DNA of 64,000 bases, from positions 813,128 through 877,127 of the forward strand of contig OZ240228.1 in assembly GCA_965197795.1 (NCBI GenBank), in the 5' to 3' direction. This stretch comes from Dehalococcoidia bacterium (lineage in GTDB: Bacteria; Chloroflexota; Dehalococcoidia; DSTF01; WHTK01). The notes beneath the pieces are model-generated. The model was not told the origin of the DNA and searched no databases. It saw only the letters and a list, made by a program, of their open reading frames with translations. Made by a program: the position numbers and the translations under genes. Shown piece by piece: positions 21,010-47,818 of the stretch (positions within the stretch are counted from its first letter, which is position 1; each line of letters starts with the position of its first letter).

Positions 21010-22185
21010 CTAAGTGGTTATCTTCCACTCGATGGCTTCTTCGGGCTCATAGGAGAAGCTGGCGCCACGTTTAACTGAGTGCTTCAAGTGACTCGCGAGG
21101 GCTGGCAAGATATCCGCAAGCTGATCCTCGACTCGGTCGAGGGCATGAGAGATGCTTGTGCGCGCCTTCTCCGCTGGCCCTTGAACGCGGCGAGGCCGGC
21201 TCCCGAGTCCAATGACCTGCCTTAGTTGTTTCTGCAATGACGACAGCTCATCCTGCTCCTCATTGGAGAGCAGCCCGCTTCTCTTGCGGGCGTCTAGCTC
21301 GGCAATCCGTCGCTGGTAGTCCCGTCGGGCATCCGTGTCTATGACCTGATCGGACTCCATTTCATCTATTCTCAATTCATCGTCGTGACTTGGCAGCGAG
21401 CCGGCTGACGGACCCGATAGGGCCAGCAGCTCGAGAGCACCGATCCTCTTGCCGGGATTGGCGAGCAGATGGGACAGATACGCCAGCCCGACATAGTTCC
21501 GGACCGTCTTGCTTACACCCGTCCATGTGGCGGTCCAGTGTTGGCCGGATTTCACCAGCGCGTACCCAGGGAGCGTCTCCAAGCGACCGAACTCCGGGAT
21601 CTCTACTGATAGTCTTGCGTCTTGCTCACGAAGCATCGCCGGCAGCGAGCACACTCTGCCTGCCAGCCACTGGGGCACGTCCTCGCTCAGAACCACGAAG
21701 AGCGCTTGCTTCCGCCCGCCACTCGGCGCGAATAGCGCCGGTGCATCCGGCCAGCCCACACCCCTGAGGAGATGCACCTCCAGACCTTGACTGGAACCTA
21801 GACTCCAGTGGCGCCCGCGCATTGCTTCACGAGGGGTCCTCCCTGTCTCCAAGACGCGGACAAGTTGTGCCGCGATGCCTTCGATGGAGATACGCCAGCG
21901 CTTTAGCAGGATCGCGTCCAATTCAACCCTGCCGTTCAGGGGGCAGTAGATGTAGGCCGGAGCGCCGTCTTCGCCGAAGGTGACAGTTTCTGAATGAGGC
22001 TCGTCGCATTCGGTGCAGCTCACTCGTGATTGGGACCCGGTCGGTTCTAGCAGGCCTAACTCCGCAAGCGACCGGACGGCGCCTTCCGGCCAGCTTTGGG
22101 TCTCGTCGCCCAGAACCAGCTTCGGGGTATCTCCTGGAAGGTCAGCCCGAATCAACAGCTCGGTCGCAATGTCGATCAGTGTCAC
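21010..22185 (-). CDS. hypothetical protein (391 aa, Cys-x2-Cys zinc-ribbon-like N-terminus, coiled-coil C-terminus); first gene of an uncharacterised two-gene operon
   Basis: No family recognised. The C-terminal ~85 aa are paralogous to the fragment at 58765-59000. Confidence 0.5.
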   Translation of the reverse strand: MTLIDIATELLIRADLPGDTPKLVLGDETQSWPEGAVRSLAELGLLEPTGSQSRVSCTECDEPHSETVTFGEDGAPAYIYCPLNGRVELDAILLKRWRISIEGIAAQLVRVLETGRTPREAMRGRHWSLGSSQGLEVHLLRGVGWPDAPALFAPSGGRKQALFVVLSEDVPQWLAGRVCSLPAMLREQDARLSVEIPEFGRLETLPGYALVKSGQHWTATWTGVSKTVRNYVGLAYLSHLLANPGKRIGALELLALSGPSAGSLPSHDDELRIDEMESDQVIDTDARRDYQRRIAELDARKRSGLLSNEEQDELSSLQKQLRQVIGLGSRPRRVQGPAEKARTSISHALDRVEDQLADILPALASHLKHSVKRGASFSYEPEEAIEWKITT

Positions 22186-23387
22186 ACGCCTACTAGCTCC
22201 CCGATGACACGCTCCAGATTGGACTCCGTAAGAGCCTTCCTAATGATCCCGTCGATGCCCTCGTGGTCGAGAAGGCACCCATTTCGAGCAAGGGTGAAAG
22301 TCTTCGTTCTTCCGCGTCGCTTCTTGCCAATCGGTCGGAACTGAGCCTGGAGTTTCACCCGCTCAACATCCATCAAGAAGAACGGGTATTTGTCCGTGGC
22401 CTCGCCTGGGACCACCGACCAGTACCGGCTTGCCACGTTGAGGACGCCCTTTCCAGGTGGCCCTCCAACCTCAACTGTTACGCTGCGTCTTCCGTCCCTA
22501 TCCCTGACATTCACCCACTTCACCTCGATACTTTCGAGTCCAGTGGGTGGATCGATGTAAAACTCGAAGGACTCGTCCTTCAGGCGATTGAGGTCATAGA
22601 TGGTCGCGGGGCCTCCGTCAGGCGGAAGGTTCATCCCCATCGCGACGATTCCAAACAACTGCTGGAGGTCTCTTACCTTCTTCTTGGTCCCCTGACAGAA
22701 GACCTCCAAATTACCCGTGTCGGGGCAGTAGAAGAAGAGCAAATCAGAAGCGGGCCGAATTTTCCGCCTAATCAACTCATCGGCCGCGTATTCGAGGACC
22801 GTCGTACCGAAGTCTTCGGGGTACGCGAGAAAAAGCGTGCCAGTTGCCCGCTCAAGGTGCTCGACCTGACAGTGAGAGCCACGTCCTTCCTCGCGCAGTA
22901 GATAGGCGGTGAGCTCGCTCGAGAGTCTCTTGATGACTGCGGCGCCTGTACTCGGGTGAAGGTCTTTCCCGATGAAGCGGCGCCGCCAGTATCTGCCATT
23001 AAGGGTATCTGCGGCTCGGAAGCGCACCAAGTCTGCGAATAGCTCTGGCCACTTTAGCAGTAGCCACAGGGCAGCGTCGTAGCTGCTTTCCAGAGCCGTG
23101 AGAACGTCTGTGAGGTCGAGCTCTCGCGCCTTTGCTTCCTGATAGATGACGTGCTGGCCATCATCATCAGCGAGGTCATAAACATCTTGGAGGTCCTGCT
23201 CCACATCAATCCGCCTGTCCGGAGGAAGGTCTTGAATGGCCGCACCTAAAGCTTCAACGTCACACTCGTCTTCCTCCAGGAATTGCTGGCCAAGAAACAG
23301 GTCCCGAGAAAGGAGGTACTCTCGGAGGAGATTCCACTCGAATTGACGCAAGACTCCTTTAGTTGAAAACGCATAGCGGTGACTCAT
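22182..23387 (-). CDS. hypothetical protein (401 aa), translationally coupled (4-nt overlap) to the downstream 391-aa gene
   Basis: Long clean ORF with no recognisable motifs. Its stop overlaps the start of 21010..22185. Confidence 0.5.
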   Translation of the reverse strand: MSHRYAFSTKGVLRQFEWNLLREYLLSRDLFLGQQFLEEDECDVEALGAAIQDLPPDRRIDVEQDLQDVYDLADDDGQHVIYQEAKARELDLTDVLTALESSYDAALWLLLKWPELFADLVRFRAADTLNGRYWRRRFIGKDLHPSTGAAVIKRLSSELTAYLLREEGRGSHCQVEHLERATGTLFLAYPEDFGTTVLEYAADELIRRKIRPASDLLFFYCPDTGNLEVFCQGTKKKVRDLQQLFGIVAMGMNLPPDGGPATIYDLNRLKDESFEFYIDPPTGLESIEVKWVNVRDRDGRRSVTVEVGGPPGKGVLNVASRYWSVVPGEATDKYPFFLMDVERVKLQAQFRPIGKKRRGRTKTFTLARNGCLLDHEGIDGIIRKALTESNLERVIGELVGV

Positions 23388-23613: not shown

Positions 23614-24315
23614 TTATGCGCGCTCGATTGCCACGGTGCCGTCCTCTTGCACCCAGGCGAGGGAGAAGTTCACGGTCCCGCTTAGCCAGGACACCTTTTC
23701 CGAGAGGTTGCGGTAGGTGATGAATTCCGGTAGAGCGAGCATTAGGTCGGCCGTGGAGTCCTCTCCGTGCCAGGCGCAGACCTCGAAGAAAGCGCCGTAG
23801 AACCAGTTTCTAGCCTGGGTGAATGGCGTCGTTCTCTCAGTTCCAGCCGGCCTTCCCTTGACGCTAGCCCAAAGCTCTCTGCCGTCCTTGCGGACCACTA
23901 TGTCCTTGCCGTGCTCGCGCGAGGACGTATCGGCGACGCGGACCACGTCGAAGCCTTCCTTCACAAGGTGACGAACGACCGCTGCCTGCACGTTCCCTTC
24001 CCAGAACCACGGCCGGTCAGAAATGACGGTGGCCGCGACCTGAGGTTTCTGCGCTGGCGAGGCCACGAAGTAGTTTCGGATGCCGTCTTCCTCTTGCCGG
24101 CGCACGATTAGTCCGGCGGACGCGAGCTCTCTACATCTCTGGTTCACCTGCGCGTGGTGCTTCACACCGAGCGCCTGGCGCAGATCCGAATCTGTCACAC
24201 CTGACGAAGAGGCGCTCATATAAGCGAGGATGGCGTCCTTGATGGTCTTCCTGCCCTTCCCTAGCTTCTGCTTCCTGGCCATCCGCCTGTTCGGGGTGGG
24301 AGGCTTCGAAGTCAT
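23614..24315 (-). CDS. winged-HTH protein with an uncharacterised C-terminal domain (possible restriction-endonuclease-like fold)
   Basis: Internal ATG at 24315. wHTH: LAYMSASSSGVTDSDLRQALGVKHHAQVNQRCRELASAGLIVRR. C-terminal: GFDVVRVAD...EHGKDIVVRKDG...VKG. Confidence 0.45.
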   Translation of the reverse strand: MTSKPPTPNRRMARKQKLGKGRKTIKDAILAYMSASSSGVTDSDLRQALGVKHHAQVNQRCRELASAGLIVRRQEEDGIRNYFVASPAQKPQVAATVISDRPWFWEGNVQAAVVRHLVKEGFDVVRVADTSSREHGKDIVVRKDGRELWASVKGRPAGTERTTPFTQARNWFYGAFFEVCAWHGEDSTADLMLALPEFITYRNLSEKVSWLSGTVNFSLAWVQEDGTVAIERA

Positions 24316-24753
24316 CAGACTGCAACAATCGATCTGTGTCGAGTGCCCATCACCCATCAGAGGACGGATAACCATGCGAGCGGCAGTATAACTGCTCACC
24401 GGAAACGTGATCGCAGCCTGACGATCCGTGGACGGCTGGCCAAGCGAGTCCACTTAGACTCTGGTTTCCGGCACTGGCAGCGCTGACCCGCTACGCACCA
24501 ATCCAGCGACCCGCCCTCGGCAAACAGACACTCACCGCTTGCCGACCAGAACCGCGCTTGCGGCCCGTAAAATGGGTCCCCGGCTCCTGCCTGGTGGCAG
24601 CAAGTTGCGGATTACCTACTCCCAAGGTGCTTTCTCGAGGTTCAGATGAGTCACGAGCGAACAGATGGCAGCAGTCCACCAGAGCGCGGCTTCTGTCTGA
24701 GGTGCGCGGAACGCCGCAACGCAACCTCGCCGTGGACCTGCTGCAGAAGCTGA

Positions 24754-25104: not shown

Positions 25105-25570
25105 GTTCTCGATCTCTTCGACTGTGATACCGTTCTCAACCGTGAGAGATTCAAGGGCGAATTGAGAGTACCAGCTTCTGCGATTCGTACGTCCCCGGGT
25201 TCAACTCGACTATGCCGGTGATTTACTGCAGCACCAATTGCTGCGTTGCAAGACTGGATAAGATCCCATGGTCGGGGCAAGATCCGCTCGATAATGTAGT
25301 CGCGGGTCGGTATGCCGTTGATCTGCTCACGGAAGAACGCTCCCCGAGGTGAGAGGGGTCAGTCCCCTCGCGCTGATTCCGCCAGAAAGCGTTCTTCGAT
25401 CACCCTAAGTAGGAGTTCAGGATCGGTCCAAGCCAACCGCTGAACCGGCAGCTTGTCTGGCTCGCGCGCCGCAGAAGGGGTCGTAGCCGAGTTGGCCGCC
25501 TGCTTCATTGGTCCTTGCTTGCGTAACAGGTCCTTGCAGTTTCCTGCGTTTTCCCTGCTGTTTTGAAGCT

Positions 25571-25626
25571 GGAGCCACTGACTTTTAATCCGTCGGTCCT
25601 GGGTTCGAATCCCAGAGGGCCCACCA
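25571..25626 (+). tRNA. tRNA-Lys(UUU) 3' fragment: anticodon arm, variable loop, T arm, acceptor 3' strand and CCA; the 5' acceptor strand and D arm are absent (att-site remnant)
   Basis: ACTGA-CTTTTAA-TCCGT / CGGTC / CTGGG-TTCGAAT-CCCAG / AGGGCCC-A-CCA. The anticodon loop matches bacterial tRNA-Lys. No complementary GGGCCCT 5' strand is upstream. Confidence 0.6.
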
Positions 25627-26046
25627 CCAACCCTGCATCAGAGCACATATGGCTCAGAGTTCTGAGGACCCTGGACGAACAGAGCAGGCTGAGGACGGCG
25701 ACGACTGCGAATGAGATGGCCACGAGCGTCTGGCCGGCGGCGAGGAAGGCAAGAGCCGACAGACCGAACACTGCCATTTCGACCAGAAACCTGCCTGTGT
25801 CAGTCAGCCACGCCGCTGACTTCGGCGCGACCAGCTTCCACCAAACGAAGATGGCCGCGCCAGGCGCCAATGACGATCCCTTCCGCCAGATTGTCGCCCG
25901 CGTGGATGCCCCAGTACATGAGGGCCAGCAGGGCGCACAGTTCGAGGAGGCGACGGCTATCGCGAATCGCGCCCTCTCAACGGAGAATCCCTAGCTCCCG
26001 CCGGAGCTCGTCCTTCGCAACCTTCCAACCGAGAACAGCGAGGCGC

Positions 26047-27633
26047 TCAGGGCAAGTCAAGGACGGAGTCGAACTCTTCCCTTACTTTCATATCCGGCGT
26101 AATCAACTTAGCGAGTACATCTGCCGAAAACTGCGAGGGGTTTTCTCCGATCCCTTCGGTGTCGCCCAAGACACTCTTCGCAACATCGAACACTACACCC
26201 AGGGCTCCTTTCGCCGACCCGTTCGGACGAATCGCCCCATCGCGGGCTACCTTGAGTTGATCGGCCGCGTTTTCTACGCGGGAGCCTCGATCGCCTACCA
26301 GTGCATCAAGAACTTCGTCATCTAGAAGGTACGACTCCAAGGAGTGGCGTTCGAGCACTCTTAGATTCGGATCACTCTTGAGTAGGCGGGTACGGTTCTC
26401 TGGAGTAAGGTCATCGCGGTCGCGCAACTTTAGAAGACGCGTCCCTGGCGCAATCACCGAAGCTATCTGAGCCGCCTGTTCAAGCTCGCCCTTGCCCCCG
26501 CTGGACTTGAACTCCACCCGTGGGTGCAGGTCACGGAAGACCTGCCGGTATATCCGTTCGTCCCACACGGGAACTCGGTCACTCACTTGGCTCCCCTCGC
26601 AAATAACCAGAACCTCTGGAGCGAGAAGCCTAGCCAGATCGTCCAAGGCAACGGACATCGCCTCACGCAGGAGTTGGCCTGAGGGCTGGGACGGCTTGAG
26701 TTGGACATCTGGGGCTGGCCCCTTGACCTGTCCGAAATCCAAGAAGGCAACCCGGCCGGGCTCGGCGGTGGACATGTCGAACGCTCTACGGATCATCCCG
26801 ACAGAGTGAGTGGCGATCCACAACTGCGATCCATCTGGGAGAAGCCGTATGAGCTCAGTGAGCACAGAGGCCTGCACGGCGGGGTTGAGGTGGATCTCAG
26901 GCTCGTCAAGGCAAATCAGGGGGGTGCCCAGCTCTGTCGCCGCAATGTGGACATCCAACAGCAGGTCGAAAACGGCCTTCTCCCCGCCGGAGAGGCTCTC
27001 GTATCGGAATCGTCGGATGTCGTCCCTAGTAAAGTAGAAAGAACCGTTCGATGTAGCATCCCCCAACCCCGTGAAACGCAAATGCGGCAACACGCGTGTG
27101 AGAGAGTCTTGCACTGGCGCCAGCGTGGCCCTAACCGTCTCAAGGTCTCGAACGGCATCACTGCTCTCCAAGTTCGATAGGACCGGAACGAAACTCGCGA
27201 CGAGCCGCTGATAGTGCTCACCGAGAGCTTCGTCTGTCTCGACCATGCGGTCGAAGGATTCACGGCTGCGAAAGTCTTGCTGTCTCTCGATGGAATTCGC
27301 CAATACGTCTGGAGTATTTCTGTGGGCAGTTCGCACATGAACGAGCGGACCCAAGGGTTCTGAGGATCCAGAATCATCACCGTCGTGCAGGGTAACCTCA
27401 GGTCTGCCAAACGTGCCCGTCTCAGAATCGAAATAGTCACCGGAAAAGCCTCTACTCATAGTTCTGCCTTTGTGCCGTGCCCATTCAAGAAACGCGTCAA
27501 AGACGGAAGACTTGCCCGTCCCGTTCGGGCCGAGCATCACCACGAGTTCGACGTCGACACCTAGCGCCTGGATCCCTAAAGAACCGAAGCGCTTGAACTT
27601 GCTGGGAATCCTGACTTCCGATACACGCATGAG
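26047..27633 (-). CDS. OLD-family (or fused PARIS-like) ABC-ATPase + Toprim nuclease
   Basis: Start MRVSEVRIPSKFKRFGSL...VMLGPNGTGKSSVFDAF (Walker A). ABC signature LSGGEKAVFDLLL and Walker B LICLDEPEIHLNP. C-terminal Toprim: VLVICEGSQVSDRVP...LKLRDRDDL. Confidence 0.75.
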   Translation of the reverse strand, partial: LMRVSEVRIPSKFKRFGSLGIQALGVDVELVVMLGPNGTGKSSVFDAFLEWARHKGRTMSRGFSGDYFDSETGTFGRPEVTLHDGDDSGSSEPLGPLVHVRTAHRNTPDVLANSIERQQDFRSRESFDRMVETDEALGEHYQRLVASFVPVLSNLESSDAVRDLETVRATLAPVQDSLTRVLPHLRFTGLGDATSNGSFYFTRDDIRRFRYESLSGGEKAVFDLLLDVHIAATELGTPLICLDEPEIHLNPAVQASVLTELIRLLPDGSQLWIATHSVGMIRRAFDMSTAEPGRVAFLDFGQVKGPAPDVQLKPSQPSGQLLREAMSVALDDLARLLAPEVLVICEGSQVSDRVPVWDERIYRQVFRDLHPRVEFKSSGGKGELEQAAQIASVIAPGTRLLKLRDRDDLTPENRTRLLKSDPNLRVLERHSLESYLLDDEVLDALVGDRGSRVENAADQLKVARDGAIRPNGSAKGALGVVFDVAKSVLGDTEGIGENPSQFSADVLAKLITPDMKVREEFDSVLDLP

Positions 27634-27753
27634 TTCTGGTCCTACACCCACCCGAAAAGGGGCCCCTCTGTCACGCTCTCGGTCTGGTCGACGTATTCGT
27701 CGGCATCCCCGTTGGCTGCGCAATTCTTCAATCGCGACACCACTCGACAAGGA

Positions 27754-28074
27754 TCAAGTAGAGGTCTGCCAGCTTTCAGCAAAAGCCGCAACCTCACTCT
27801 CGGTCTTCGGATGGCAAGCCCTATGAACCAAGGCTCCGTTGCCAAGTTGCGTCAGCCCACCTTTGTGATGCTCCTTCACATGGTGAATTTCCGCCTCAGG
27901 CCAGTTTACTTCTGAGTGGCATCGAGATGGTAAAGCATGCTGATCCTTGCTGGCGCGCGTCACGAAGGCATTGGCGCGTTGTTCGACAGAGCTTGGAGGC
28001 TCAGAGCCGCTTTCGGCGTTACGTCCTAGCTCGTTATAGCCAAGCCCACCCGGAGGCTTCTGAGTGGACCCCAC
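27754..28074 (-). CDS. small HNH endonuclease, directly upstream of the OLD-family gene
   Basis: EIHHVKEHHKGG...GNGALVHRACH (H-N-H spacing). 120-nt gap to the OLD start on the same strand. Confidence 0.5.
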   Translation of the reverse strand: MGSTQKPPGGLGYNELGRNAESGSEPPSSVEQRANAFVTRASKDQHALPSRCHSEVNWPEAEIHHVKEHHKGGLTQLGNGALVHRACHPKTESEVAAFAESWQTST

Positions 28075-28119
28075 ACTGGATCGAGGCTCATGTGCCAGCG
28101 CAGGAATGGCGTCCTTCGC

Positions 28120-28470
28120 CTATTCGCCTCGCCGCCATACGGTGGGGTCGCAGAATACGAGGCGCCACAGCGCAGAATCGGAGCCATACCCGAAGCTGCC
28201 GTCAGGCTCCTCGACGATCCAACGGCATTCGAAGGACCCGGGCGTGTCGTTCACGGTTGCATCGCCCCTCGATAGCCAGATGGCCGGCGCAGTGTTCTCC
28301 ATCTCGGTTACGCGAAAGTCCGAGAGGTCGAAGCCTTCAAACGCCTCATGCAGTCGCCCGGCCATCTGGCCCAGCGATTTCTCCCCTTTATCGAGCCGCC
28401 TAGTCGGGAAGCGGGCAAGCGCACCGAAGTTCCGCTCACGCCAACCGGTCAGGAACTCAACGGTCAGCAC
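28120..28470 (-). CDS. hypothetical protein
   Basis: 116-aa ORF with protein-like composition. Function unknown. Confidence 0.3.
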   Translation of the reverse strand: MLTVEFLTGWRERNFGALARFPTRRLDKGEKSLGQMAGRLHEAFEGFDLSDFRVTEMENTAPAIWLSRGDATVNDTPGSFECRWIVEEPDGSFGYGSDSALWRLVFCDPTVWRRGE

Positions 28471-29936
28471 GTGGATCTCGTGGTCGTCGAAGCGAGCATC
28501 GGGAACCGAGAGATGCGCCGCCCCAGGGGATACGAAGGGGATAGCGTCGGCAAATGTGGGGGCTCATCCTGAGAATGACGCTGTCCAATCCGAACTGCTA
28601 CTCCGCGCTTTGCAGCGGCTTCCGCTGTCTTCTCGAGCAGCTGACCGATGACCTTGTGGCTAGTTGCCGTGACGCCAACCCTCTTCCCAGCAGCCGCCAG
28701 GTCCACGATCATCTCCGCACCGACTGTGGTCTTGCCGGAGTCCGGCGGCCCCTGCACAGCGAGGTAGCTGGCATCCAGCTGAGCCACGAGGCGACGAGCA
28801 GCCGCCTCGGCTGGTTCGTCTGGGCTAGCAAGACTGTCGCCGTTTGGCTGACCAGCGTTGGGAGGCTTTCGTAGCAAGAGGTCTCGAGCAGCTCGAAACG
28901 GCCCCGCTGCGTCGATGCCGTTGTCGATCACCCACTCTGCGATTCGTCGCAGGTTGGCTTGCTGCTCCGGCGTGCGAATATCCTCGAGTGGCACCAAGGA
29001 AGTAGGACTTGGTGGGTCAGCGTTCCTGCCTCGCTTGATCTCGATGGTGCTTGAATCGTCGTCGATAGCGACAACCGTGCCGACGCGCTGACCATCCTGC
29101 GCGGGATCGCGAGGCGTGGAGCCGACGGTGATCTTGTGGTCTTGGGGTGGAAAGCGGAAGCGGTAGATAATCGACTGCCTCTCCTGGCCGACCGGGCCGT
29201 CCGCAATGAGGTCCCCCATGGCGTCGGGCTCCGCAACGCGTTCTTCATCGGTCAGATCGTTGACCAGGTAAAAGTAGCGCCACCACATCGACTTCTCTTC
29301 GCGGCGGTGCCAGCTGAGAAGCTGCGCCAATAGCCGACGTCCCTGCTCCTCGGCGCTGCGGCTGGAAGGGTCTTCGGAAACGCCAGCGACCAGCTTTCCC
29401 GTCAGTTCGAGCGTCAACGCGAGCAACTGCGTCAGATCCTCACTTGCGGTGCCGCTGTCCGCTGCAGGCCTCGGTAGTTCCCCTCCGAGGTCAGCCGCCA
29501 GTTGAGTTCGTAGTGTTTCTAGCCAATCGCGTAACCGCCAAGTGGAGACGCAATCGTCTTTGTTGTATTCCTCGATGCGCTGCAGGATTTCTGGGTCATC
29601 TTCAACCTCGCCACCGAGCTCAAGCCAGGTCTCGAAGGCAACGATGCTCGAACCCGCGTCACGCAAATCGACTGTACGAGTGAACCCGTAGAGGGGTTCC
29701 AGCTTCTTGATCGAGTAGCTCTCGACGGAGGCACGGATGCCCTGACGCACAGCTCGAAACAGATCGACAAAGACGCCGCCACGGAGGAGCCGGTCGACTT
29801 CGTCCTCGCGCGTACCGTAGCGACCCATGAGACGACGCACGGCGGTCTGCTCGTAGGCAGCGTAGTGGTAGATATGAAGGTTTGGGTCCGCTTCGAGACG
29901 GAGCATGACGAGATCGATAAACGCCTCGAACGCCAT
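28464..29936 (-). pseudogene. fragment of a RecB-like nuclease / RNase-H-like exonuclease / SF1 helicase (TM0106-type) gene, truncated at both ends
   Basis: YprB-like 3'-5' exonuclease region (IYHYAAYEQTAV...KDDCVSTW). Walker A LAVQGPPDSGKTTV...VGVTATSHKVIGQLLEK follows, then the frame decays. The N-terminal PD-(D/E)XK part is absent and an IS3 orfA lies immediately upstream. Confidence 0.55.
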
Positions 29937-29939
29937 GTG

Positions 29940-30320
29940 TCAAGTAGATAATCCCCGTTTTTTGAGGACCAGCACCTCCAGCGACGGCTCTGCCACCAGC
30001 TGCTGCAGGCGCTCGTTGTCGCGCTTGAGGCTCGCCACCTCCAGCTGCGTGGCGTCGCGCACCGTCTCGGCTGCAAGCCTCGTCTTGCCAGCCTCCATGA
30101 ACTCCTTGAGCCAGGCGTAGTAGACGTTGGGGTTGATGCCCTCCCGGCGGCAGAGGTCTGACACCCTGGTCTCGCGCCGGAAGCCCTCCAGCACGACGCG
30201 GACCTTCTCCTCCGCCGTGAACTTGCGCCGAGTCGTCCGACGCACTTGCTGGATGAATTGCCGCGTCTCGTCCTCGACCGGCATCGCCTCAGCGGCTGGA
30301 ATCCTGCGCATCCTCGGCAT
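29940..30320 (-). CDS. IS3-family transposase OrfA (HTH); no OrfB present
   Basis: MPRMRRIPAAEAMPVEDETRQFIQQVRRTTRRKFTAEEKVRVVLEGFRRETRVSDLCRREGINPNVYYAWLKEF is a typical IS3/IS911 OrfA. Confidence 0.7.
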   Translation of the reverse strand: MPRMRRIPAAEAMPVEDETRQFIQQVRRTTRRKFTAEEKVRVVLEGFRRETRVSDLCRREGINPNVYYAWLKEFMEAGKTRLAAETVRDATQLEVASLKRDNERLQQLVAEPSLEVLVLKKRGLST

Positions 30321-30525
30321 GTCTCGCTCCTTCTGCCGACGGTAACCTACCGCCACTACAGGAAGCCAGAGCAACCTCAGTCATCCATTAACAATTGCTA
30401 ACTCTGTGTCCGGATTTCGCTGACGGGGAACAGTGCAAGCCAGCGACCAAAGTCTCCATTAGAAATCAGGCCGAAAAGTCCGGATTTCGCCGAAGACGTA
30501 CAGCAAGAGTCCTCGCTGTTCAGGA
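29940..30525 (-). mobile_element. IS3-family remnant (orfA plus left-end IR beginning TGAACAGCG...); orfB is deleted
   Basis: The minus-strand end at about 30525 begins TGAAC, and two GTCCGGATTTCGC direct repeats lie in the leader. It ends 2 bp before repeat unit copy 2. Confidence 0.5.
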
Positions 30526-30527
30526 CC

Positions 30528-30581
30528 GACTATCGATCTTCGGAGTCTGGCGATCGCCCTGACTGTCGATCTTTGCCTAGT
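30528..30581 (-). repeat. bipartite repeat unit, copy 2 (reverse orientation)
   Basis: GACTATCGATCTTCGGAGTC-tggcgatcgccct-GACTGTCGATCTTTGCCTAGT. Nearly the exact reverse complement of copy 5 (47899-47954). Confidence 0.8.
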
Positions 30582-31286
30582 CTCCTCGGTCCACTAACGT
30601 TGGTCTCGCGTGCCGCTTCGTACGAACTCCGTAAGTCGTCCAATTCAACGCATGTGATTCGGTGTGCACACGGTTCACCCGTGTAAGCGTAAGGAGGGAC
30701 ATCGCGCCCATCCGGGGCATTGTCAGTCTTATTCTGATTACACTTCTCGCACAGCAATTGCAAGTTAGTGAGTTCCGAGTGACTTCTTATCGGTATGATG
30801 TGATCCACCGTTAGCTGGTCCGTAGAGTACATGAGCTTATCGCACCTGTTGCACACCAGACCTTGCTTGTATGCAAGCAAGGTCTTCGCTTGGAATTTCT
30901 TGGGGGTGTTTATCCATCTCTGTAACTGGTGATGTGGCAGCTCATTACCGTCGACTTTGTCGTTAGATCGCTTTTTAATATCATCGATTAGGTCGTCGAT
31001 AGTGTGGTAATTGGTACCATCCAAAAGCTCACTGAACATCTCATCGAGTACTCTGGCAACCTCGCTGAACCGCTCGCCAATGCCTCGCATTGAGGCCAAA
31101 GCTTCTGTTTGAGGCAGACTGTTTGAGCTTGGACTAGAGTCCGCGTCCAGGTGAAGGATCGTGCTTTTTTCACCGCAGTCTTCGCATTGCTCAACGGTAG
31201 TAAAGCTTCCGCGGTTAGTCTCCCTCCTGTCGATTTCTTTCCATCTATGAATAACTTGGACTTCGTGCATGGAGCTTTTGTTCATT
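30530..31286 (-). CDS. HNH endonuclease (lower-GC gene); its C-terminal ~18 codons are encoded by the repeat unit
   Basis: HNH motif DHIIPIRSHSELTNLQLLCEKCNQNK. GGAGAGG RBS before the ATG at 31286. The C-terminal LGKDRQSGRSPDSEDR is the translation of repeat copy 2. Confidence 0.7.
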
Positions 31287-31449
31287 TTGCGTACCTCTCC
31301 AGCACGGGGGATCAACGAGTGCCCCGATACCCACCTGGCGAATGGTCAGCCAGTGCTAATTTCTGACATTCTATCTGGAGATGCCTCAGTGCCAAGCCTT
31401 CGTCGTCAAATAATGAACCAAGCCGCCGCGGAGCAGAGGAGACGTTGCT

Positions 31450-32337: not shown

Positions 32338-32655
32338 CTAGCGTCTCCCGAAGCCCCCGTCGTGCAGTACCGTCTTGCGGCTATGGCAGGTCTGGCACAG
32401 CGCCCGCAGGTTGTCAGCGGCATCGGTCCCACCTCGAGACAACGGCCGGATGTGGTCAATCACCGTAGCCCTGGCGCCGCAGGCTATACAGCGTGGTTGA
32501 CGAGCCAGCACCCTGCGGCGAAGGCTTTGCCACGCGGAACCGTAGCCTCGGCGCGCTGTTGTGGGACGCTGTGCCTGGTGAGCCAGGCAGCGCGCCGACC
32601 GCGTGAGCACGGTGCAGCCAGGCTCAGAACAGGGCGCGGGCAGCCGGCGACGCAT
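32338..32655 (-). CDS. phage-type HNH endonuclease (copy 1)
   Basis: CxxC ... HIRPLSRGG ... NLRALCQTCH. 105 aa. A paralog (~85% identical) is at 48975..49298. Confidence 0.7.
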   Translation of the reverse strand: MRRRLPAPCSEPGCTVLTRSARCLAHQAQRPTTARRGYGSAWQSLRRRVLARQPRCIACGARATVIDHIRPLSRGGTDAADNLRALCQTCHSRKTVLHDGGFGRR

Positions 32656-35237: not shown

Positions 35238-36349
35238 CTACCACTGCCACCAGACGCTGTCCCACTCGGCCCGGAGGTCAGTGGATGCCCTGGTGGACAT
35301 GACGTCTGATGCCGAGACGGTCTCACCTGGCTGCAACTCTTGGCCGCCTGGGACAGGAGCGAGCCTCCATTGCCGTCCGGTGGGGACGGTACCCTCCGAT
35401 ACGGCGAGTGTCAGCCGTGGCCCCTTGGTGGTGTCTTCAGCTTTGACGACCGTGCCCCTGACCGTCTCGCGGAACATGTCCCATTCGGGCCCGGTAGCTT
35501 TCAGGAACGGGTTGCAAGCGCCCCGGAACGGACAATGATCACATGTCTCCGCCGACGGACTTGCGAGCGAGCCTTCGGACGGTGACCGGCTAACGGCCTC
35601 GTTGAACTCTTCCAGTAGCCGGTAGGCCTCCCTGCCCTGCTCCTCCACTAGGGCCTTGTCCAGTTGGGCCGAGACCCTGGTGCCGTCCGTCCTCTGCAGT
35701 GAGACGACGTCTGGCCACTCACCGTGCTGGTCATGCCAGATGAAGGCGTATAGGAGCAGCTGCCTCCCGTAGCTGGAGTCCGGCCCGAGGGAGGGTTCCG
35801 GCCAGGAGACTCCGTTCTTGATGTCGACTAGTTCTAGCCGGCCGTTGCCTGACTCCACGCGGTCGACCCGTCCGACGAGAAGACCGTCCTTTGTCTCGGT
35901 CCACTCCTCGACGGCTACGCTGCCACGCGCCGGTTGCCCGCCCGCTTCCCGTGGGGCAACCCTCCGGCGGGCTACTTCTGATACTGCATTGACAAGCCTT
36001 ACCCTGGTCAGTTGGTACCTCGGCCAGCGCTCTGGCGGAGGTGGTTGGAGTCCGTCCGGTTCGGACTTTAACTCCTCAACGCGAGCGGCGATCAGTGCCT
36101 CCCACTGTGACCCGACTGCGGTCTCAACCGCGTCTTCATCTAAGCCGTCAAACTCCCCGCGGGCCAGCGCCTCATAGACCCCGTGCACCGCAGTGCCGAG
36201 TAGGGCCCACGTGGACTGTTGCTGCGCCGCTGCGAAGCCCTCGTCCAGGCCGAATGCCACGCGGAGCTGACAAGACCGCAGTCCTTCCAATGTGGAGTGG
36301 CTGGCCCGCTTGAGTGGTGCGAATGTGACCTCGCCAGGCCTTTGCAAGG
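35238..36349 (-). CDS. Cas4-like PD-(D/E)XK nuclease with a C-terminal Cys cluster (start uncertain, overlaps the DruE-like stop)
   Basis: LELVDIKNG (D/ExK) and CDHCPFRGACNPF (Cas4/AddB-type Fe-S Cys motif). It lies immediately downstream of the 1793-aa helicase gene on the same strand. Confidence 0.6.
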
Positions 36350-39300
36350 TTAGGATCCGTTGAGCCAGCTGATGATGTCCACCGAGTGGTGCAGGAGCGA
36401 GAAAAGGTCGGAGGCCCTGATCTCCTGCGCCCCATGCCTCACCATTTGATCCTCCGCCTCCGCCTGCTCGGCTGTATAGAAGGAGCTGTCCGACCGCCAT
36501 AGAGGGTGACCGAAGAAGACTGCGCGGTGGCTGTCCGGCATCGATGCTGTCCAGAGCCCCCCGACCTGGTCGACCTGGGCCTCAGGGAAGCACTCAGCGA
36601 AGCCCCGTACAAGCCGGTCTGCCGTAAGTTGCCAGCGGCTGAAGTCCAATGGCAGGCCCCGGACAAGGTCGTTGACGTCGAGCGCCAGCCGCCAGTCCAA
36701 GAGTGCGTGGACGTGCCGGTTGTCGTAGTGCCGTAGGCAGTCTGGACATGACGTGAGGCACTCGTCCGCGTGGTCCTTCCTCAAGAATCGGTCGCCCAAG
36801 TCCTCTTCGATCCGCTTCAGTACCGAGTTGAGTACTTCAGGTCGGCCTAACTGTGAGCAGTAACCCGCGCCGTTCTCTAGAGTGTCGGCCAGGAAGACCC
36901 GGGCCGTGGGCTCGTCGCCAGAGGACACTGGCTGGAGGCCGGCCCTGACCTCGAGTGGCCCGACGTCCAGCTCAGTCGTGGCCGCTAACCGGAAGACCTC
37001 AGCGAACGACCACAGGGCCGCCCGGCCGGCCGGCATGTGCGCCCGGTTCGTGGAGATCACGCCAGTCGGGCCTGGCAGGTCCTGGCTTTCAACCGTCAAC
37101 GTCAGGACATCGGTCGGGCTGATGCTCCCGATCGCGGCTGTGAGCGTAGGCTCCCGGCCCGTGAGTCCGGCGACTCGGTGCGGTACTTCCGTGTACGTGT
37201 CAGGGTCAGCCACGACGTAGGAGTTGTGGTCGAACCGGTGCATGGCGAACAGCTTTTGGTCGTTGTCGTTGATGCTGAACAGGTCTGCCCCCGGGATAAC
37301 ATCGGTAGTCGCCCCCCCGACGTCGAAGCTGTCTGCGCCCGTCGGGCCATACGCGAGCTGGGGGAACCCGGCGCCGTAGCCACGCTCTACCTCGTCGTCG
37401 TAGTCTCCGGGTTGGAAGTCAGTCCGGAACCCCAATGGTTGGTAGAGGTCGAATGAGTCCATCGCGCTGTCGCACGCCGGGCAGTCGTCACCCGCTGCCT
37501 CGGCGACTGTGACCGCCTGGCAGACTGGGCACCTCCTTACGTGGACTGGTGTGCCTAATGGGTTGGTGACGGGGACCGGGCGGCTCCCTACGAATTCCCA
37601 GGCCGCGAACCCGATGGCCCGGTGGAGCTGCTTGTCCTTCAGCACTTCCGAACCTGGGGCGAAGCTCGATATGGCGATGTCGAGTGCTCGGTCGGATACG
37701 GCTGCACCGTCGTCGAGTGGGCCGCGCGGCGGGCGGCCGTAGAGCTCCCTTACTCGGCTCGGGAAGCCGAACATCGGCAGGACGCCGGCGTTAGCTAACC
37801 GCTCGCTCAGCTCGGGTTGGATGTACGTCTCACTGTTGACTATCTCGTCGATCTTCGCGGCAAGGCCTTCCCGAGCCCAGGCTGATAGGACGGCGAGGTC
37901 ATCGGCACTGAGCCCTGTAAAGGCTGTCAGGCGTTGGACAGCATCGCCTGCTTCCGCAGCATGGGCCAGCCAAGGTACGACGGAGTCCCTGTACTTGGCC
38001 TGCCAGTCGCTTGCGGCGCCGAAAGCGCCGTGCGTACTGTCCCGGGTTTGCCTTGGTCTCTGGTCAGCGGGCACCTGGAGGAAAGCGAGCCGGAGGATTT
38101 CTGAGGCGATCACCCTGCGCACGATTTCGGCCCGGTCGAGGTCGAGGTAAGGGGGAGGTGGCGGGTCGCCTGTAATCCGTTCTGAGTGCAGGAAGTAATA
38201 CTCGTCGTGCGAGCGGTCCCGACACAGCGTCAGGGCGAACGAGAACGGCTGCCCTTTACGGCCGGCTCGCCCGACGCGTTGTTGGTAGTTGAACCGCTGC
38301 GGCGGCATATTGGCCATCATCACGGAGCGGAGCGAACCAATGTCGACGCCGACCTCCATGGTCGTCGTCACGCTGAGGACGTCAATCCCGTGTGTCAGGT
38401 CGGTTTCCTTCGGTTCCCCGAGGAAGGCTCCTTTGAACCTCCTCTGGCGGCCGCGTTGTTCACTCAGCGGCTTCGTCTGCCCTGTCAGCTCCTCGACTGC
38501 GAGGCGGCGAGACTCGTCGCGAGTGAGCCAGGTGAAGTAGTCCTCGTCTATTCCGCCGGTCCAGACTTCCAAGCTGCCACTACAACCACGGAACGTGCAC
38601 GCTCCCGCCGCCTGGTGCAAGTGGAGGCGCGTGCACTTTTGGCACTTCCAGAGCTGCTCCCCAGACGCCCTCACGACGCTGAGTGCGGCCATCTGGAGGT
38701 TCCAGTTGTCGTCGACTACGCCGGACGACCTAAGGGCGTTCTCGACTGCAGAGGTCAGTTCCCCTTGCCCTATGGAGTGGTTGGCCGCGGCCCTTGCAAG
38801 GTACAACCGGAGTGGTGGCGGGACAGTTGTAGACGGGTACTGTTCTCCTTCGCGCGGGTGCCGCCCCGCCAGGCCGAGTACCCGGACGCTCCCGAGTATG
38901 ACTTCCCGCGCGGCTGCGTCTGGCAACGGGATGTCTGCCGTGCTCAGACGGGACGGTTCCAGGTAGCCGAGCCCGATGGACTCAAAGTCTCTTCCGGCGC
39001 TGTCGAAGAGTAACGTGGCGAGGTAGACCTCAAGCTGTCGTCTCAAGTCTTCCTCGACCTGGAGGCTTTCAGCTGGCGAAAGCTGCTGCCATGTCGCTCC
39101 TGTCGGGGGAGGGAACGCCCTCCACCACTCGAGGCCCCGTGGCCGTTGGAGGCTCGCCTTGGGGCCGCCGGGGTTGACGCCCAGTGTTGAGAGGGCTTGC
39201 TCTACTTTGGCGAGGAGGTCTGTCCAGGCGAGCCGGTCGCCCCTGTTGCCCTGCTGGGACTCGAAGTCCTCTATGGTGAGCTTCGCCTCCTCGTCGTCAG

Positions 39301-41731
39301 GGACGCGGTTCAGGATCCTGTAGGCTGCCCACACGTCAGGCCAGGTCCTCGCGTACAGGCTCCGTTGACTCTCCTCGTCGGGGCTGAGGTCAGCTCCAGA
39401 CGAAGCCTTCCTGAATAGGTCGGGAGCAGCGACTACCCTCTCTAGTTCTTTATCCATGACCTGCCGGACCAAGTTCCGGAAGTGGTTGAGTTCGAGCCCC
39501 GCAGCCGTTTGGGCAGCATCGTCGCGGCTGTCGTTGAAGACAATGGTGCGACCATCTTCGGGATTTTCGCCCATGGAGCGGACGAGGCGGTCGAGGACGA
39601 CCTGGCCCACGCGGGCGAAGCCCGTGCGGTGGCCTCTTATAGGGCTGCGCACAACCCCCCGGAAGAATGTAGACAGCTGCCTACTGTTTGGCTGCTGTGA
39701 ACCGCAAGCGGGACAGACTTCAGGCAAGGCCGCCACCTTGTGCCGTTCCGTCGGTATGTCGGCCACGTTCATAAATGTACCGGTCGCCGGACCCGCGGCT
39801 CTCGTGAGCATGCCTAGGCGGGGGTCGTAGTCGGCACCCAAAAGCGAGAAGGTGGTCCGCTTGCTCACACCGGGAGCGGTATGGTGCCAGGGGTCGAGCT
39901 TGAGCTCTGGGTCGTTCTGCCGCCTAGGCCAATACCACATGAACTCGCCCCATGTCCGGCGGTTTACCAGTGCCGACTCTTTAGAGGGGACGTCGTCTTC
40001 GGTAGGGCCGAGGAACCACTCCGTTGGTTGTGGGTCGGCAGTCCGGACCGCGAATCCGCCCAGGGAAACGTCGCCGCACTGGTCGCAGTACAGGAGCTCG
40101 AGGACTCGTGAACCACAGGAGCAAGTCGGGGTCGGCCGTGAGTAGAGGCGCCCGACCCTCCGTTGCGGGGAGTGCCAGTCGTCCTGGCCCGGCGCGCTAC
40201 AGTTGGGGTTGCTGCAGGCCCAGACCCCTGGGACGTTCCGGACAAACAAATGGGCACGGAACGGTATGGCATCCCCACCAGACTGGAGTGCCAACCCATC
40301 GAGGACTGCGTTCAACGCCGACGTGTCCCCATCGGGCTTGGTATCGAAGATGAGCTCTTCGAGGTCTCTGAGCTTGCGTGGCTTGACCTGACCGTCAGGT
40401 CCGGTGCAGGCCACTGCGACGACTGTGGCCACTTCCATCTCTCTGAGCGCCTTCCGTAGTGTGTCACTGCGGATCTCCGGCCCGAGGGCGTCGATTTCTC
40501 GGAGCGCCTCTCGCGACAGCGGCCTGGCCGCCTTCAGCGCCCGTGGCACGCCGGGGATGACGGTGAAAGTAGAACGGTCTACGCCGAAGAACTGCTCGAG
40601 GTACTCGTAGCTCGACTCTGAAGACTCCGGCAATGAGGCGCTGGTGCCAATGCACCTCAGCTGTGGCGAGTCCGGTGTCAGCCCGAGCCTGCTCAGGAAG
40701 TTGCGCACTACTAGCGCGACCTCTGTTCCTTGGGAGCCACGGTAGGTGTGAAGCTCGTCGACTACCAGCGTGAAGACATTTGACTTGTCCTCGGCTAGCC
40801 AATCCCTGGTCGCCCGGAAGAGGTGTGCCTCTCTCTGCCGCATCAGCATCACGTTGAGCATCGAGTAGTTCGTAACGAGGACGTCGGGCGGGGCCAAAAG
40901 CATGTCCCAACGGGTCAGGAGTTCCCCCTGGGTCGGGTCCGGGAACTGTGACCATAGTTCGAGGTCAGATATGCCGATGTCCCGCGACTCTGCCTCTATC
41001 TTGCGGAGCTCGTTCATAACCTCCCGGACGCGCTCCGTCCCCGTGTGCTCTGGGAGGTCGCCGGGTCCTAGCGTGACGCCGGTATAGCGGCCGAAGTAGA
41101 AACGCCTCCCACTGGAGCGTTCCCCGAGTAGGACCGCCCGGCGGAGGCGGGCTATCTGGTCTTCGACCAGCGCATTGGTCGGGTAGAGCACCGCAGCGCG
41201 GACTGCTGCCGTCCGGCCATCGTCTTTCCGCACACCACTAAACGGCTGCCGTCCCCTGGACTGGTCCCACCATTTGTCTGGTTGGGGCGGGGCGGGCCAA
41301 TTGTGGCGTTCTGCTTCCGACAACAGGCGGGCGAAGACGGGCAAGAGGAAGCTCTCGGTCTTGCCAGAGCCCGTCCCGGAGGTGACGACGGGGTTGTGGA
41401 CACCGCTGTCTTGAAAGGCGGCCCGGAGTGATGCGGCCTGGTGCGGCCTCAGTTTGAAACCCCCGTCCTCGGCTGAAAAGAGCATCCGGCCCAGCGTGTC
41501 TGCGACTGCTTGGCTGAGGCCGACGTCGGCACAGACCTGGCGTATCGACTCAACCGAGTCGTAGGGCAAGACCGGTTCAAGGAGCGGGTCGGTGAAGATG
41601 ACGTCGTCTCGGCTGAGCAGGTCGCGCCGCTCGGCCCGGATGCCAGGGTCGTCGAGGCGGAAAGCAGTATCGTAGTACCGGAGGTAGGCCTCACGGACCG
41701 ATGTGTAGACAGTAAGGGGCTGTGGGTTCAC
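36350..41731 (-). CDS. DruE-like giant DEXH-box helicase with zinc ribbons and a DUF1998-like C-terminal region (1793 aa)
   Basis: Motif I VTSGTGSGKTESFLLP, motif II VVDELHTYRGSQGTEVA, helicase-C MEVGVDIGSL...QRVGRAGRKGQP. Cys4 clusters CSNPNC...CSCGS...CDQCG and CPVCQ...CPACD. Size and architecture match Druantia DruE. Confidence 0.7.
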   Translation of the reverse strand: MNPQPLTVYTSVREAYLRYYDTAFRLDDPGIRAERRDLLSRDDVIFTDPLLEPVLPYDSVESIRQVCADVGLSQAVADTLGRMLFSAEDGGFKLRPHQAASLRAAFQDSGVHNPVVTSGTGSGKTESFLLPVFARLLSEAERHNWPAPPQPDKWWDQSRGRQPFSGVRKDDGRTAAVRAAVLYPTNALVEDQIARLRRAVLLGERSSGRRFYFGRYTGVTLGPGDLPEHTGTERVREVMNELRKIEAESRDIGISDLELWSQFPDPTQGELLTRWDMLLAPPDVLVTNYSMLNVMLMRQREAHLFRATRDWLAEDKSNVFTLVVDELHTYRGSQGTEVALVVRNFLSRLGLTPDSPQLRCIGTSASLPESSESSYEYLEQFFGVDRSTFTVIPGVPRALKAARPLSREALREIDALGPEIRSDTLRKALREMEVATVVAVACTGPDGQVKPRKLRDLEELIFDTKPDGDTSALNAVLDGLALQSGGDAIPFRAHLFVRNVPGVWACSNPNCSAPGQDDWHSPQRRVGRLYSRPTPTCSCGSRVLELLYCDQCGDVSLGGFAVRTADPQPTEWFLGPTEDDVPSKESALVNRRTWGEFMWYWPRRQNDPELKLDPWHHTAPGVSKRTTFSLLGADYDPRLGMLTRAAGPATGTFMNVADIPTERHKVAALPEVCPACGSQQPNSRQLSTFFRGVVRSPIRGHRTGFARVGQVVLDRLVRSMGENPEDGRTIVFNDSRDDAAQTAAGLELNHFRNLVRQVMDKELERVVAAPDLFRKASSGADLSPDEESQRSLYARTWPDVWAAYRILNRVPDDEEAKLTIEDFESQQGNRGDRLAWTDLLAKVEQALSTLGVNPGGPKASLQRPRGLEWWRAFPPPTGATWQQLSPAESLQVEEDLRRQLEVYLATLLFDSAGRDFESIGLGYLEPSRLSTADIPLPDAAAREVILGSVRVLGLAGRHPREGEQYPSTTVPPPLRLYLARAAANHSIGQGELTSAVENALRSSGVVDDNWNLQMAALSVVRASGEQLWKCQKCTRLHLHQAAGACTFRGCSGSLEVWTGGIDEDYFTWLTRDESRRLAVEELTGQTKPLSEQRGRQRRFKGAFLGEPKETDLTHGIDVLSVTTTMEVGVDIGSLRSVMMANMPPQRFNYQQRVGRAGRKGQPFSFALTLCRDRSHDEYYFLHSERITGDPPPPPYLDLDRAEIVRRVIASEILRLAFLQVPADQRPRQTRDSTHGAFGAASDWQAKYRDSVVPWLAHAAEAGDAVQRLTAFTGLSADDLAVLSAWAREGLAAKIDEIVNSETYIQPELSERLANAGVLPMFGFPSRVRELYGRPPRGPLDDGAAVSDRALDIAISSFAPGSEVLKDKQLHRAIGFAAWEFVGSRPVPVTNPLGTPVHVRRCPVCQAVTVAEAAGDDCPACDSAMDSFDLYQPLGFRTDFQPGDYDDEVERGYGAGFPQLAYGPTGADSFDVGGATTDVIPGADLFSINDNDQKLFAMHRFDHNSYVVADPDTYTEVPHRVAGLTGREPTLTAAIGSISPTDVLTLTVESQDLPGPTGVISTNRAHMPAGRAALWSFAEVFRLAATTELDVGPLEVRAGLQPVSSGDEPTARVFLADTLENGAGYCSQLGRPEVLNSVLKRIEEDLGDRFLRKDHADECLTSCPDCLRHYDNRHVHALLDWRLALDVNDLVRGLPLDFSRWQLTADRLVRGFAECFPEAQVDQVGGLWTASMPDSHRAVFFGHPLWRSDSSFYTAEQAEAEDQMVRHGAQEIRASDLFSLLHHSVDIISWLNGS

Positions 41732-44805: not shown

Positions 44806-44908
44806 GTTCCACCTGCAATGTCCGTAGTCGTTCTCCCACGATTAAGAGATTGACGAATGCTAATCGCACTTAAGTGGAGGCGTAAAGGACTGAAGGTTGG
44901 AAGGTTCG

Positions 44909-45601: not shown

Positions 45602-45689
45602 CCAGCTGTCCCATGTTCATGCAGGACGGGCCCGAGAGCCGAACATTGTTAGAATTCCCCAGCAGTACCCTCGCTACAGGTGGTAAGAG

Positions 45690-46436: not shown

Positions 46437-46438
46437 GA

Positions 46439-47755: not shown

Positions 47756-47796
47756 CACTTGCCCTCTAGAGGGATAATTTAGCTCTAAGCGAGCCA

Positions 47797-47818
47797 CATG
47801 TCGATCTTTGCTTAGTAG
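47797..47818 (-). repeat. repeat unit half-copy (reverse A half only), copy 4
   Basis: aTGTCGATCTTTGCTTAGTAG, 78 bp upstream of forward copy 5. The two form a short inverted pair. Confidence 0.6.

What the first reader, a model, noticed from the sequence alone, without database searches (positions are those of the whole stretch)
26047..28074. OLD-family (or PARIS-like fused) ATPase-Toprim nuclease with an upstream small HNH endonuclease instead of a UvrD-like partner
The protein has the ABC ATPase (Walker A, LSGGEK signature, Walker B) and a C-terminal Toprim (EG...DRDD). Class 2 OLD/Gabija pairs with a UvrD helicase, and PARIS pairs AriA with AriB. Here the only co-oriented neighbour is a ~106-aa HNH protein 120 nt upstream. 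This may be a class 1 OLD with an accessory HNH, or a variant two-gene system.
Basis: partly seen in the sequence, partly recalled or inferred. Interest (0 to 1): 0.55.

Follow-up and report, generated by a model that had tools for sequence, protein, structure and literature searches.

The report
Single-gene ATPase-Toprim defence nuclease; HNH remnant
The region holds an intact stand-alone gene for a fused ATPase-nuclease of the known OLD/PARIS anti-phage family, and the small "HNH partner" beside it is a leftover end of another gene, so this is an ordinary member of a known kind and not a new two-gene system.

Summary

The proposed HNH partnership is not supported. The 106-aa ORF is a chimera. 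Its first 41 codons are the 3' flank of an unrelated gene. Its HNH part matches only the C-terminal domain of a protein of at least 262 aa and has lost one zinc-binding cysteine. About 18 other loci that carry a homologue share only the gene itself plus up to about 75 nt upstream and 100 nt downstream. None has an HNH gene upstream. The surrounding DNA is a mosaic of gene fragments.

Verdict: a new member of a known kind. Interest is low.

The parts
26047..27630 (-). Intact 527-aa gene (stop codon included) for a fused ABC-ATPase (about residues 1-315) and Toprim/DUF4435-like nuclease (about residues 318-527). It is AriAB-like, within the OLD family in the broad sense.
27631..27704 (-). About 75 nt of 5' leader that travels with the gene in some relatives (L001, L004). 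It includes an AGGA about 11 nt before the ATG.
   Evidence: DNA similarity to L001 and L004 ends at 27699 and 27704. Other loci carry a different leader.
25949..26046 (-). About 60-100 nt of 3' flank that travels with the gene. It contains a small inverted repeat, AGCTC-CGGCGG-GAGCT.
   Evidence: Similarity to L001, L002, L012 and L019 ends at 25988-25999; similarity to L004 and L023 ends at 25949. No canonical terminator was found.
27754..27951 (-). HNH-domain remnant: the last 65 or so codons of a larger HNH-containing gene. Not part of the system.
   Evidence: Pfam HNH matches ORF residues 51-91. The only relative found has this domain at residues 195-246 of a protein of at least 262 aa. 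There is no PADLOC match.
27952..28119 (-). Non-coding 3' flank of the 414-aa-family gene. It supplies the first 41 codons and the GTG start of the chimeric 'HNH' ORF.
   Evidence: 98% DNA identity with L015 up to a sharp breakpoint at about 27950.
28120..28515 (-). 3' fragment (about 130 codons, ending at the native stop) of a widespread 414-aa protein family of unknown function.
   Evidence: 115 homologues, mostly 391-416 aa, cover only this part and end at the same RRGE/RRSE stop.
28464..29936 (-). Fragment of an RNase_H_2 / AAA_11 SF1-type helicase-nuclease gene, truncated at both ends. It is preceded by an IS3 OrfA-like fragment at 29940..30374, identified by eye.
   Evidence: The Pfam match starts at position 49 of the RNase_H_2 profile, and the AAA_11 match stops after Walker A.

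Best explanation
The feature is a stand-alone single-gene anti-phage system: a compact 527-aa fusion of an ABC-type ATPase and a Toprim nuclease. It is most closely related to merged PARIS (AriAB), which some authors file as 'class 4' of the OLD family.

Proposed mechanism, by analogy with PARIS and OLD (inferred, not shown):
- The ATPase head dimerises or oligomerises and acts as the infection sensor.
- On sensing a phage trigger it uses ATP binding or hydrolysis to license the tethered Toprim domain.
- The Toprim domain is a two-metal nuclease using E345 and D404/D406. It then cleaves host nucleic acid, tRNA if it behaves like AriB or DNA if like OLD or GajA. This stops translation or replication and aborts the infection.

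Shown here: the gene is intact, conserved, under purifying selection, and carries every catalytic motif. It moves between genomes as a single gene with about 60-100 nt of flank on each side.

The neighbouring 'HNH' ORF is debris from recombination in a decaying mobile island and plays no part.
For: Gene integrity and family:
- Full-length homologues of 527 aa at 66-93% identity.
- 236 clusters at 50% identity with E <= 1e-30, mostly 520-545 aa and aligned end to end.
- Invariant G34/G37/G39/K40, S214/G216/E217, D242, E345 and D404; D406 nearly invariant.
- dN/dS 0.12-0.27 against eight intact homologues.

Classification:
- PADLOC AriAB PDLC02981 is the top model for the window protein (1.3e-23) and matches 74 of 74 relatives (best 5e-38). 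The alignment spans the ATPase C-lobe through the Toprim core.
- Pfam DUF4435 hits 16 of 74 relatives (best 4.3e-8), and OLD-like_TOPRIM was not among the 25 families listed of 30.
- Merged ariAB clades are described in PMC11464382, section 11.

Single-gene unit:
- DNA similarity to the other loci with detectable DNA similarity is confined to 27704..25949.
- The neighbours differ in every locus.

HNH is debris.

Cost of the gene: two homologues are split by independent IS630-type insertions and one is frameshifted.
Against: - The window protein's own C-terminal domain hits neither DUF4435 nor any other Pfam or NCBIfam model.
- A profile of that domain finds no AriB or OLD sequence in the PDB.
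- Foldseek ranks class 2 OLD first and does not list AriB.
- The AriAB model is matched only over positions of about 265-575 of 694, and the protein is about 230 aa shorter than AriA plus AriB.
- No homologue was found in the phage collection.
- No function, trigger or substrate has been tested for this family.
Confidence: 0.8

Rival explanations
1. It is a class 1 OLD nuclease, a single-gene P2 Old / Thermus scotoductus OLD type that cuts DNA, rather than a merged PARIS.
For: - It is a single gene of 527 aa, almost the same length as Ts OLD (528 aa, 6p74).
- Foldseek's best hit for the C-terminal domain is an OLD C-terminal region, 6nk8 at 2.2e-4.
Against: - The PADLOC Old model matches only the ATPase stretch 231-283, at 7.9e-8, against 1.3e-23 for AriAB.
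- Among relatives DUF4435 is hit 16 times out of 74, and OLD-like_TOPRIM was not among the 25 families listed (of 30).
Confidence: 0.15
2. It is a true two-gene system in which the upstream HNH protein is an accessory or second effector.
For: - The ORF is co-oriented, 123 nt upstream, and passes the Pfam HNH threshold.
- AAA_15/21 ATPases do pair with HNH nucleases in Septu (PMC11464382, figure 6c legend).
- One homologue locus, L006, has an unrelated 109-aa HNH gene about 200 nt downstream.
Against: - None of about 18 other loci has an HNH upstream, including the closest relative at 93% identity, where a tRNA gene abuts the start codon.
- The first 41 codons of the ORF are another gene's 3' flank.
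- The HNH part is the tail of a protein of at least 262 aa and lacks one Zn-ligand Cys.
- It has no PADLOC PtuB or other match at E <= 1.
- The L006 HNH shows no similarity to it and lies on the other side of the gene.
Confidence: 0.03
3. The ATPase-Toprim gene is itself a decaying or non-defence gene, for example a DNA-repair or Rad50-like housekeeping ATPase.
For: - The surrounding region is full of pseudogene fragments.
- The full-length fold search is dominated by Rad50, SMC and PtuA ATPase heads.
- In some genomes the gene sits among housekeeping genes.
Against: - The ORF is intact and all catalytic residues are present.
- dN/dS is 0.12-0.27.
- Genomic positions are patchy and variable, often beside tRNA genes, RM, TA, TIR and AbiE genes, which is typical of mobile defence genes.
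- The best-scoring profiles are defence-system models.
Confidence: 0.02

Closest known systems
Merged PARIS (AriAB; DefenseFinder PARIS_I_merge / PARIS_II_merge; PADLOC AriAB PDLC02981 and PDLC02982)
   Different: The protein is only 527 aa, and the AriAB model is matched only over positions of about 265-575 of 694. Its own C-terminal domain falls below detection by Pfam DUF4435. The trigger and substrate are unknown. The hexameric scaffold-and-release mechanism shown for two-protein PARIS cannot apply literally to a fusion.
Class 1 OLD nucleases (P2 Old; Thermus scotoductus OLD, PDB 6p74)
   Different: There is no OLD-like_TOPRIM Pfam signal in the window protein, and none among the families listed for its relatives. 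The Old HMM matches only a 50-residue ATPase stretch.
Class 2 OLD / Gabija GajA
   Different: No UvrD-like GajB partner lies next to the gene here or in most loci. The helicase fragment upstream is a truncated SF1 RNase_H_2/AAA_11 pseudogene that is not conserved with the gene.
Septu (PtuA ATPase + PtuB HNH)
   Same: The ATPase head resembles PtuA (Foldseek 1e-10; PADLOC PtuA 1e-12), and an HNH ORF is adjacent.
   Different: The protein carries its own Toprim effector. The HNH ORF is upstream, fragmentary, has no PtuB match, and is not conserved.

Membership tests
PARIS, merged form (AriAB) | N-terminal ABC ATPase of the AAA_15 / AAA_21 type with Walker A, signature and Walker B motifs | tested here: met
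   Pfam AAA_21 scores 1.1e-19 (72 bits, cut-off 27). AAA_15 is partial (29.7 bits, below its cut-off of 32.1), but all 74 relatives hit AAA_15 and AAA_21 at E <= 0.01. The motifs are invariant.
PARIS, merged form (AriAB) | C-terminal DUF4435 (PF14491) Toprim domain with a catalytic Glu and DxD | tested here: inconclusive
PARIS, merged form (AriAB) | Match to a curated fused AriAB profile | tested here: met
   PADLOC PDLC02981 is the best of 5027 models, at 1.3e-23 and 81.6 bits, and matches 74 of 74 relatives. Only model positions of about 265-575 of 694 are covered, and the tool's own calling threshold is not available here.
PARIS, merged form (AriAB) | Sensing of a phage anti-restriction protein and tRNA cleavage leading to abortive infection | not testable with these tools
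   This needs a phage challenge and RNA cleavage assays.
Class 1 OLD (P2 Old type) | Single gene encoding an ATPase followed by an OLD-type Toprim (PF20469) and catalytic helical region | tested here: inconclusive
Class 2 OLD / Gabija | Adjacent UvrD/PcrA-like helicase partner (GajB) | tested here: not met
   No UvrD gene is adjacent in the window. Neighbours differ in every locus. The UvrD genes in L016-L018 are 2.7 kb (L016), 2.4 kb (L017) and 2.4 kb (L018) from the gene's stop and are each paired with a separate 573-585-aa gene.
Septu-like or new ATPase + HNH two-gene system | Conserved adjacency of an intact HNH gene with the ATPase gene | tested here: not met
   No locus of about 18 has an upstream HNH, and one has an unrelated downstream HNH. 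The window ORF is a chimeric remnant with no PtuB match.

The most novel reading that the evidence does not exclude
The compact family of about 530-aa proteins may be a distinct, uncharacterised single-gene branch of the OLD/PARIS superfamily. It comprises at least 236 clusters at 50% identity and occurs in Dehalococcoidia, Acidimicrobiia, a Rhodobacteraceae MAG and a Zymomonas plasmid. On this reading it is neither a canonical merged AriAB nor a P2-type Old. It would have its own trigger and substrate, spread as a one-gene cassette that often lands beside tRNA genes, and be costly enough to be knocked out repeatedly by IS630-type insertions.
Probability: 0.3. Interest if true: 0.4.

Novelty: new member of a known kind. 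Interest (0 to 1): 0.2.

Why it matters
The result matters little beyond annotation. It shows that proteins databases label only 'AAA family ATPase' in Chloroflexota and other phyla are compact fused ATPase-Toprim defence nucleases related to PARIS and OLD. A fused version is a convenient minimal model for one open question: how does an ABC ATPase sensor license a Toprim nuclease when the two cannot dissociate? The case is also a caution. Inside defence islands, short ORFs that pass a domain threshold can be chimeric debris, so an adjacency seen in one genome should not be read as a system.

Tried and rejected
- HNH partnership: rejected on neighbourhood and breakpoint evidence.
- 116-aa ORF plus HNH ORF as one gene split by a nonsense mutation (they are in the same frame): rejected. 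The TAG at 28120 is the native stop of the 414-aa family.
- Upstream helicase fragment as a Gabija-like partner: rejected. It is truncated at both ends, is not UvrD-type, and is not conserved with the gene.
- Single-sequence and profile searches of the C-terminal domain against PDB sequences found nothing useful.
- The full-length Foldseek search returned only ATPase heads.
- The phage collection had no homologue.
- The promoter and terminator scan gave nothing above chance.
- ARAGORN and Rfam at the gathering threshold found no RNA gene in the window.
- I considered an integron-cassette or MITE-like structure for the conserved flanks. I saw only a 5-bp inverted repeat and did not pursue it.
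- A functional link between the nearby tRNA-Lys(UUU) fragment and the nuclease: considered unlikely, because the fragment is absent next to the gene elsewhere.

Full report
**Observation**

The minus strand of 26047..28074 holds two ORFs. One is a maximal 567-aa ORF at 26047..27750 that starts with TTG. The other is a 106-aa ORF at 27754..28074 that starts with GTG.

More than 100 database homologues at 66-93% identity are nearly all 527 aa and align from the Met at 27630.

The protein has Pfam AAA_21 at 1.1e-19 and partial SMC_N and AAA_15 matches. The upstream ORF passes the Pfam HNH threshold, with 30.8 bits against a cut-off of 21.4 over residues 51-91.

**The ATPase-Toprim protein**

An exhaustive search of 1.84 billion representatives found 236 clusters with E <= 1e-30. 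Most are 520-545 aa and align end to end at 30-38% identity. The single-polypeptide architecture is therefore old and conserved.

In a 74-sequence alignment the following residues are invariant:
- Walker A: G34, G37, G39, K40.
- Signature motif: S214, G216, E217.
- Walker B: D242.
- C-terminal half: E345 (the CEG motif), D357, D404 and K474. D406 and E432 are conserved in at least 90% of sequences.

The gene is under purifying selection, with dN/dS of 0.12-0.27 against eight intact homologues.

**Which family**

- Among 5027 PADLOC models the best is the fused PARIS model AriAB, PDLC02981, at 1.3e-23. Next is AriA at 2.1e-20. The Old model reaches only 7.9e-8, on a 50-residue ATPase stretch.
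- All 74 relatives match AriAB (best 5e-38). The alignment always runs from the ATPase C-lobe through the Toprim core, covering model positions of about 265-575 of 694.
- Pfam DUF4435, the AriB domain, is hit by 16 of 74 relatives (best 4.3e-8). OLD-like_TOPRIM was not among the 25 families listed of 30.
- The window protein's own C-terminal 210 aa is too divergent for any Pfam or NCBIfam model. A profile of this domain finds nothing among PDB sequences.

AlphaFold models are confident, with pLDDT 89.8 for the full length and 92.8 for the C-terminal domain. Fold searches gave these results:

| Search | Query | Result |
|---|---|---|
| Foldseek, PDB | full length | PtuA, Rad50 and SMC ATPase heads |
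| Foldseek, PDB | C-terminal domain | class 2 OLD C-terminal region 6nk8, E 2.2e-4; AriB not listed |

The protein is a fused ABC-ATPase/Toprim nuclease of the OLD superfamily in the broad sense. It lies closest to the DUF4435/AriB lineage. Merged ariAB genes are already described: two of the eleven PARIS clades are merged forms (PMC11464382, section 11). The margin over OLD is small and the match to the AriAB model is partial. I therefore call it 'AriAB-like' with about 0.8 confidence. Class 1 OLD is the main rival.

**The HNH ORF**

Three lines of evidence show that it is not a partner gene.

1. It is a chimera. DNA from 28515 to 27952 is 98% identical to contig L015. There it is the 3' end and downstream flank of a gene for a 414-aa-family protein. 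Similarity stops sharply at about 27950. Codons 1-41 of the 'HNH' ORF, including its GTG start, are this flank. The 116-aa ORF upstream (28120..28470) is the last 130 or so codons of that 414-aa family and ends at the family's native stop.

2. The HNH part is a remnant.
   - The only relative found, in JGI metagenome contigs, is the C-terminal domain (residues 195-246) of a protein of at least 262 aa.
   - The window aligns with residues 198-246 at 55% identity.
   - The window has Pro where the first Cys of the CxxC zinc knuckle should be.
   - A search of 5.8 billion proteins with the read-through sequence returned hits only to the 414-aa part.
   - The ORF has no PADLOC match at E <= 1.

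3. The pairing is not conserved.
   - DNA similarity between the window and the other loci that share detectable DNA similarity with it is confined to 27704..25949. That is the gene plus at most about 75 nt upstream and 100 nt downstream.
   - The loci examined are Dehalococcoidia, Acidimicrobiia, Tepidiformaceae and Rhodobacteraceae MAGs, metagenome contigs, and a Zymomonas plasmid.
   - Upstream neighbours seen include NAD synthase, AbiE toxin-antitoxin genes, an NgoMIV-type restriction gene, ParA and tRNA genes.
   - A Pfam scan of every ORF of at least 75 aa within 900 nt of the gene in ten loci found one HNH besides the positive control.
   - That one is a 109-aa gene about 200 nt downstream in L006 and shows no similarity to the window's ORF.
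   - In the closest relative (L023, 93% identity) a tRNA gene abuts the leader.

**Context**

The gene lies in a lower-GC stretch of roughly 18-33 kb. This stretch carries a serine recombinase, tyrosine-integrase-like genes, an IS3 fragment, a helicase fragment truncated at both ends, a DUF6088 fragment and two other HNH genes. It looks like a decaying mobile or defence island in which fragments have been joined by recombination. The HNH ORF is one such joint.

**Mechanism**

Shown:
- The gene is intact and conserved.
- It has a complete ABC ATPase motif set and a Toprim E...DxD active site.
- It moves as a single-gene unit.
- Copies are repeatedly inactivated. Two copies carry independent IS630-type insertions (HTH_32 + DDE_3) and one is frameshifted, out of 11 genome copies. 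This is consistent with a costly or toxic gene.

Inferred from PARIS and OLD biology (PMC11464382, PMC12409363):
- The ATPase senses a phage cue.
- Through ATP it licenses the tethered two-metal Toprim nuclease to cut host tRNA (AriB-like) or DNA (OLD-like), which aborts the infection.
- In a fusion, activation must work through conformational change or Toprim dimerisation, not through release of a separate subunit.

**Novelty and score**

Fused ATPase-Toprim defence genes, including merged PARIS, are known. This is a divergent, compact member of that kind, and sources annotate it only as 'AAA family ATPase'. The unusual element of the finding, an HNH partner, is an artefact of gene debris. 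Interest is 0.2.

The most novel reading not excluded is that this 530-aa family forms its own class within the OLD/PARIS superfamily, with a different trigger or substrate. I give that a probability of about 0.3.

Noticed in passing
window 25567..25631 (+): The 3' two-thirds of a tRNA-Lys(UUU)-like gene: anticodon loop CUUUUAA, T-arm, 3' acceptor strand and ACCA are present, and the 5' acceptor strand is missing. Rfam tRNA scores 21.8 bits, below its gathering score of 29 (E 0.099), and ARAGORN calls nothing. It lies about 420 nt beyond the nuclease stop on the opposite strand and is absent next to the gene in other loci, so it is probably an att-site remnant. It is curious only because E. 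coli AriB cleaves tRNA-Lys(UUU).
   Followed up: partly
L008 7336..8560 and L012 4770..6024: Two homologues of the ATPase-Toprim gene are split by independent insertions of about 1.2 kb. Each insertion encodes HTH_32 + DDE_3 (IS630-type) transposase ORFs, at different sites and in different orientations. The L014 copy has many internal stops. Three of 11 genome-collection copies are dead.
   Followed up: yes
L014 5566..5964; L023 1..124: In two loci the gene starts directly after tRNA genes: tRNA-Leu, tRNA-Arg and tRNA-Val in L014, and a tRNA-Ala-like sequence in L023 (identified by eye). A leader motif, AATCAAAC.AAT.AGGATTT, is also shared with L002 and L003. The window, L001 and L004 carry a different 75-nt leader.
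   Followed up: partly
window 28120..28515 (-): A 3' fragment of a family of about 414-aa proteins with no Pfam domain. The family is abundant in the same kind of metagenome assemblies: 115 clusters, many found on very large contigs. Its function is unknown.
   Followed up: partly
window 21010..23387 (-): Two genes of 391 and 401 aa overlap by 4 nt and have no Pfam or PADLOC match. They sit between the integrase-like genes and a 279-aa wHTH (MarR-like) protein at 23614..24453. They may be an uncharacterised island cargo pair.
   Followed up: no
window 30530..31315 (-) and 32338..32655 (-): Two further HNH genes lie in the same island. The 261-aa protein has weak PtuB-like PADLOC matches (2e-6) but no PtuA next to it. 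The other is a 105-aa HNH/HNH_5 protein (8.7e-12).
   Followed up: partly
window 35238..48103 (-): A cluster of five genes: a PD-(D/E)XK nuclease, a 1793-aa DEAD/Helicase_C/MZB (DUF1998) protein, a 1025-aa protein with no domain, an HhH-GPD glycosylase and a C5 cytosine methylase. It resembles a DISARM-like helicase-methylase defence locus.
   Followed up: no
L016 6904..10916; L017 2147..6159; L018 2370..5986: In one lineage the homologue sits between an NgoMIV-type RM system and a pair made of a 573-585-aa domain-less protein and a UvrD helicase. That pair may be a separate Gabija-like system. The gene therefore lives in defence islands elsewhere too.
   Followed up: no
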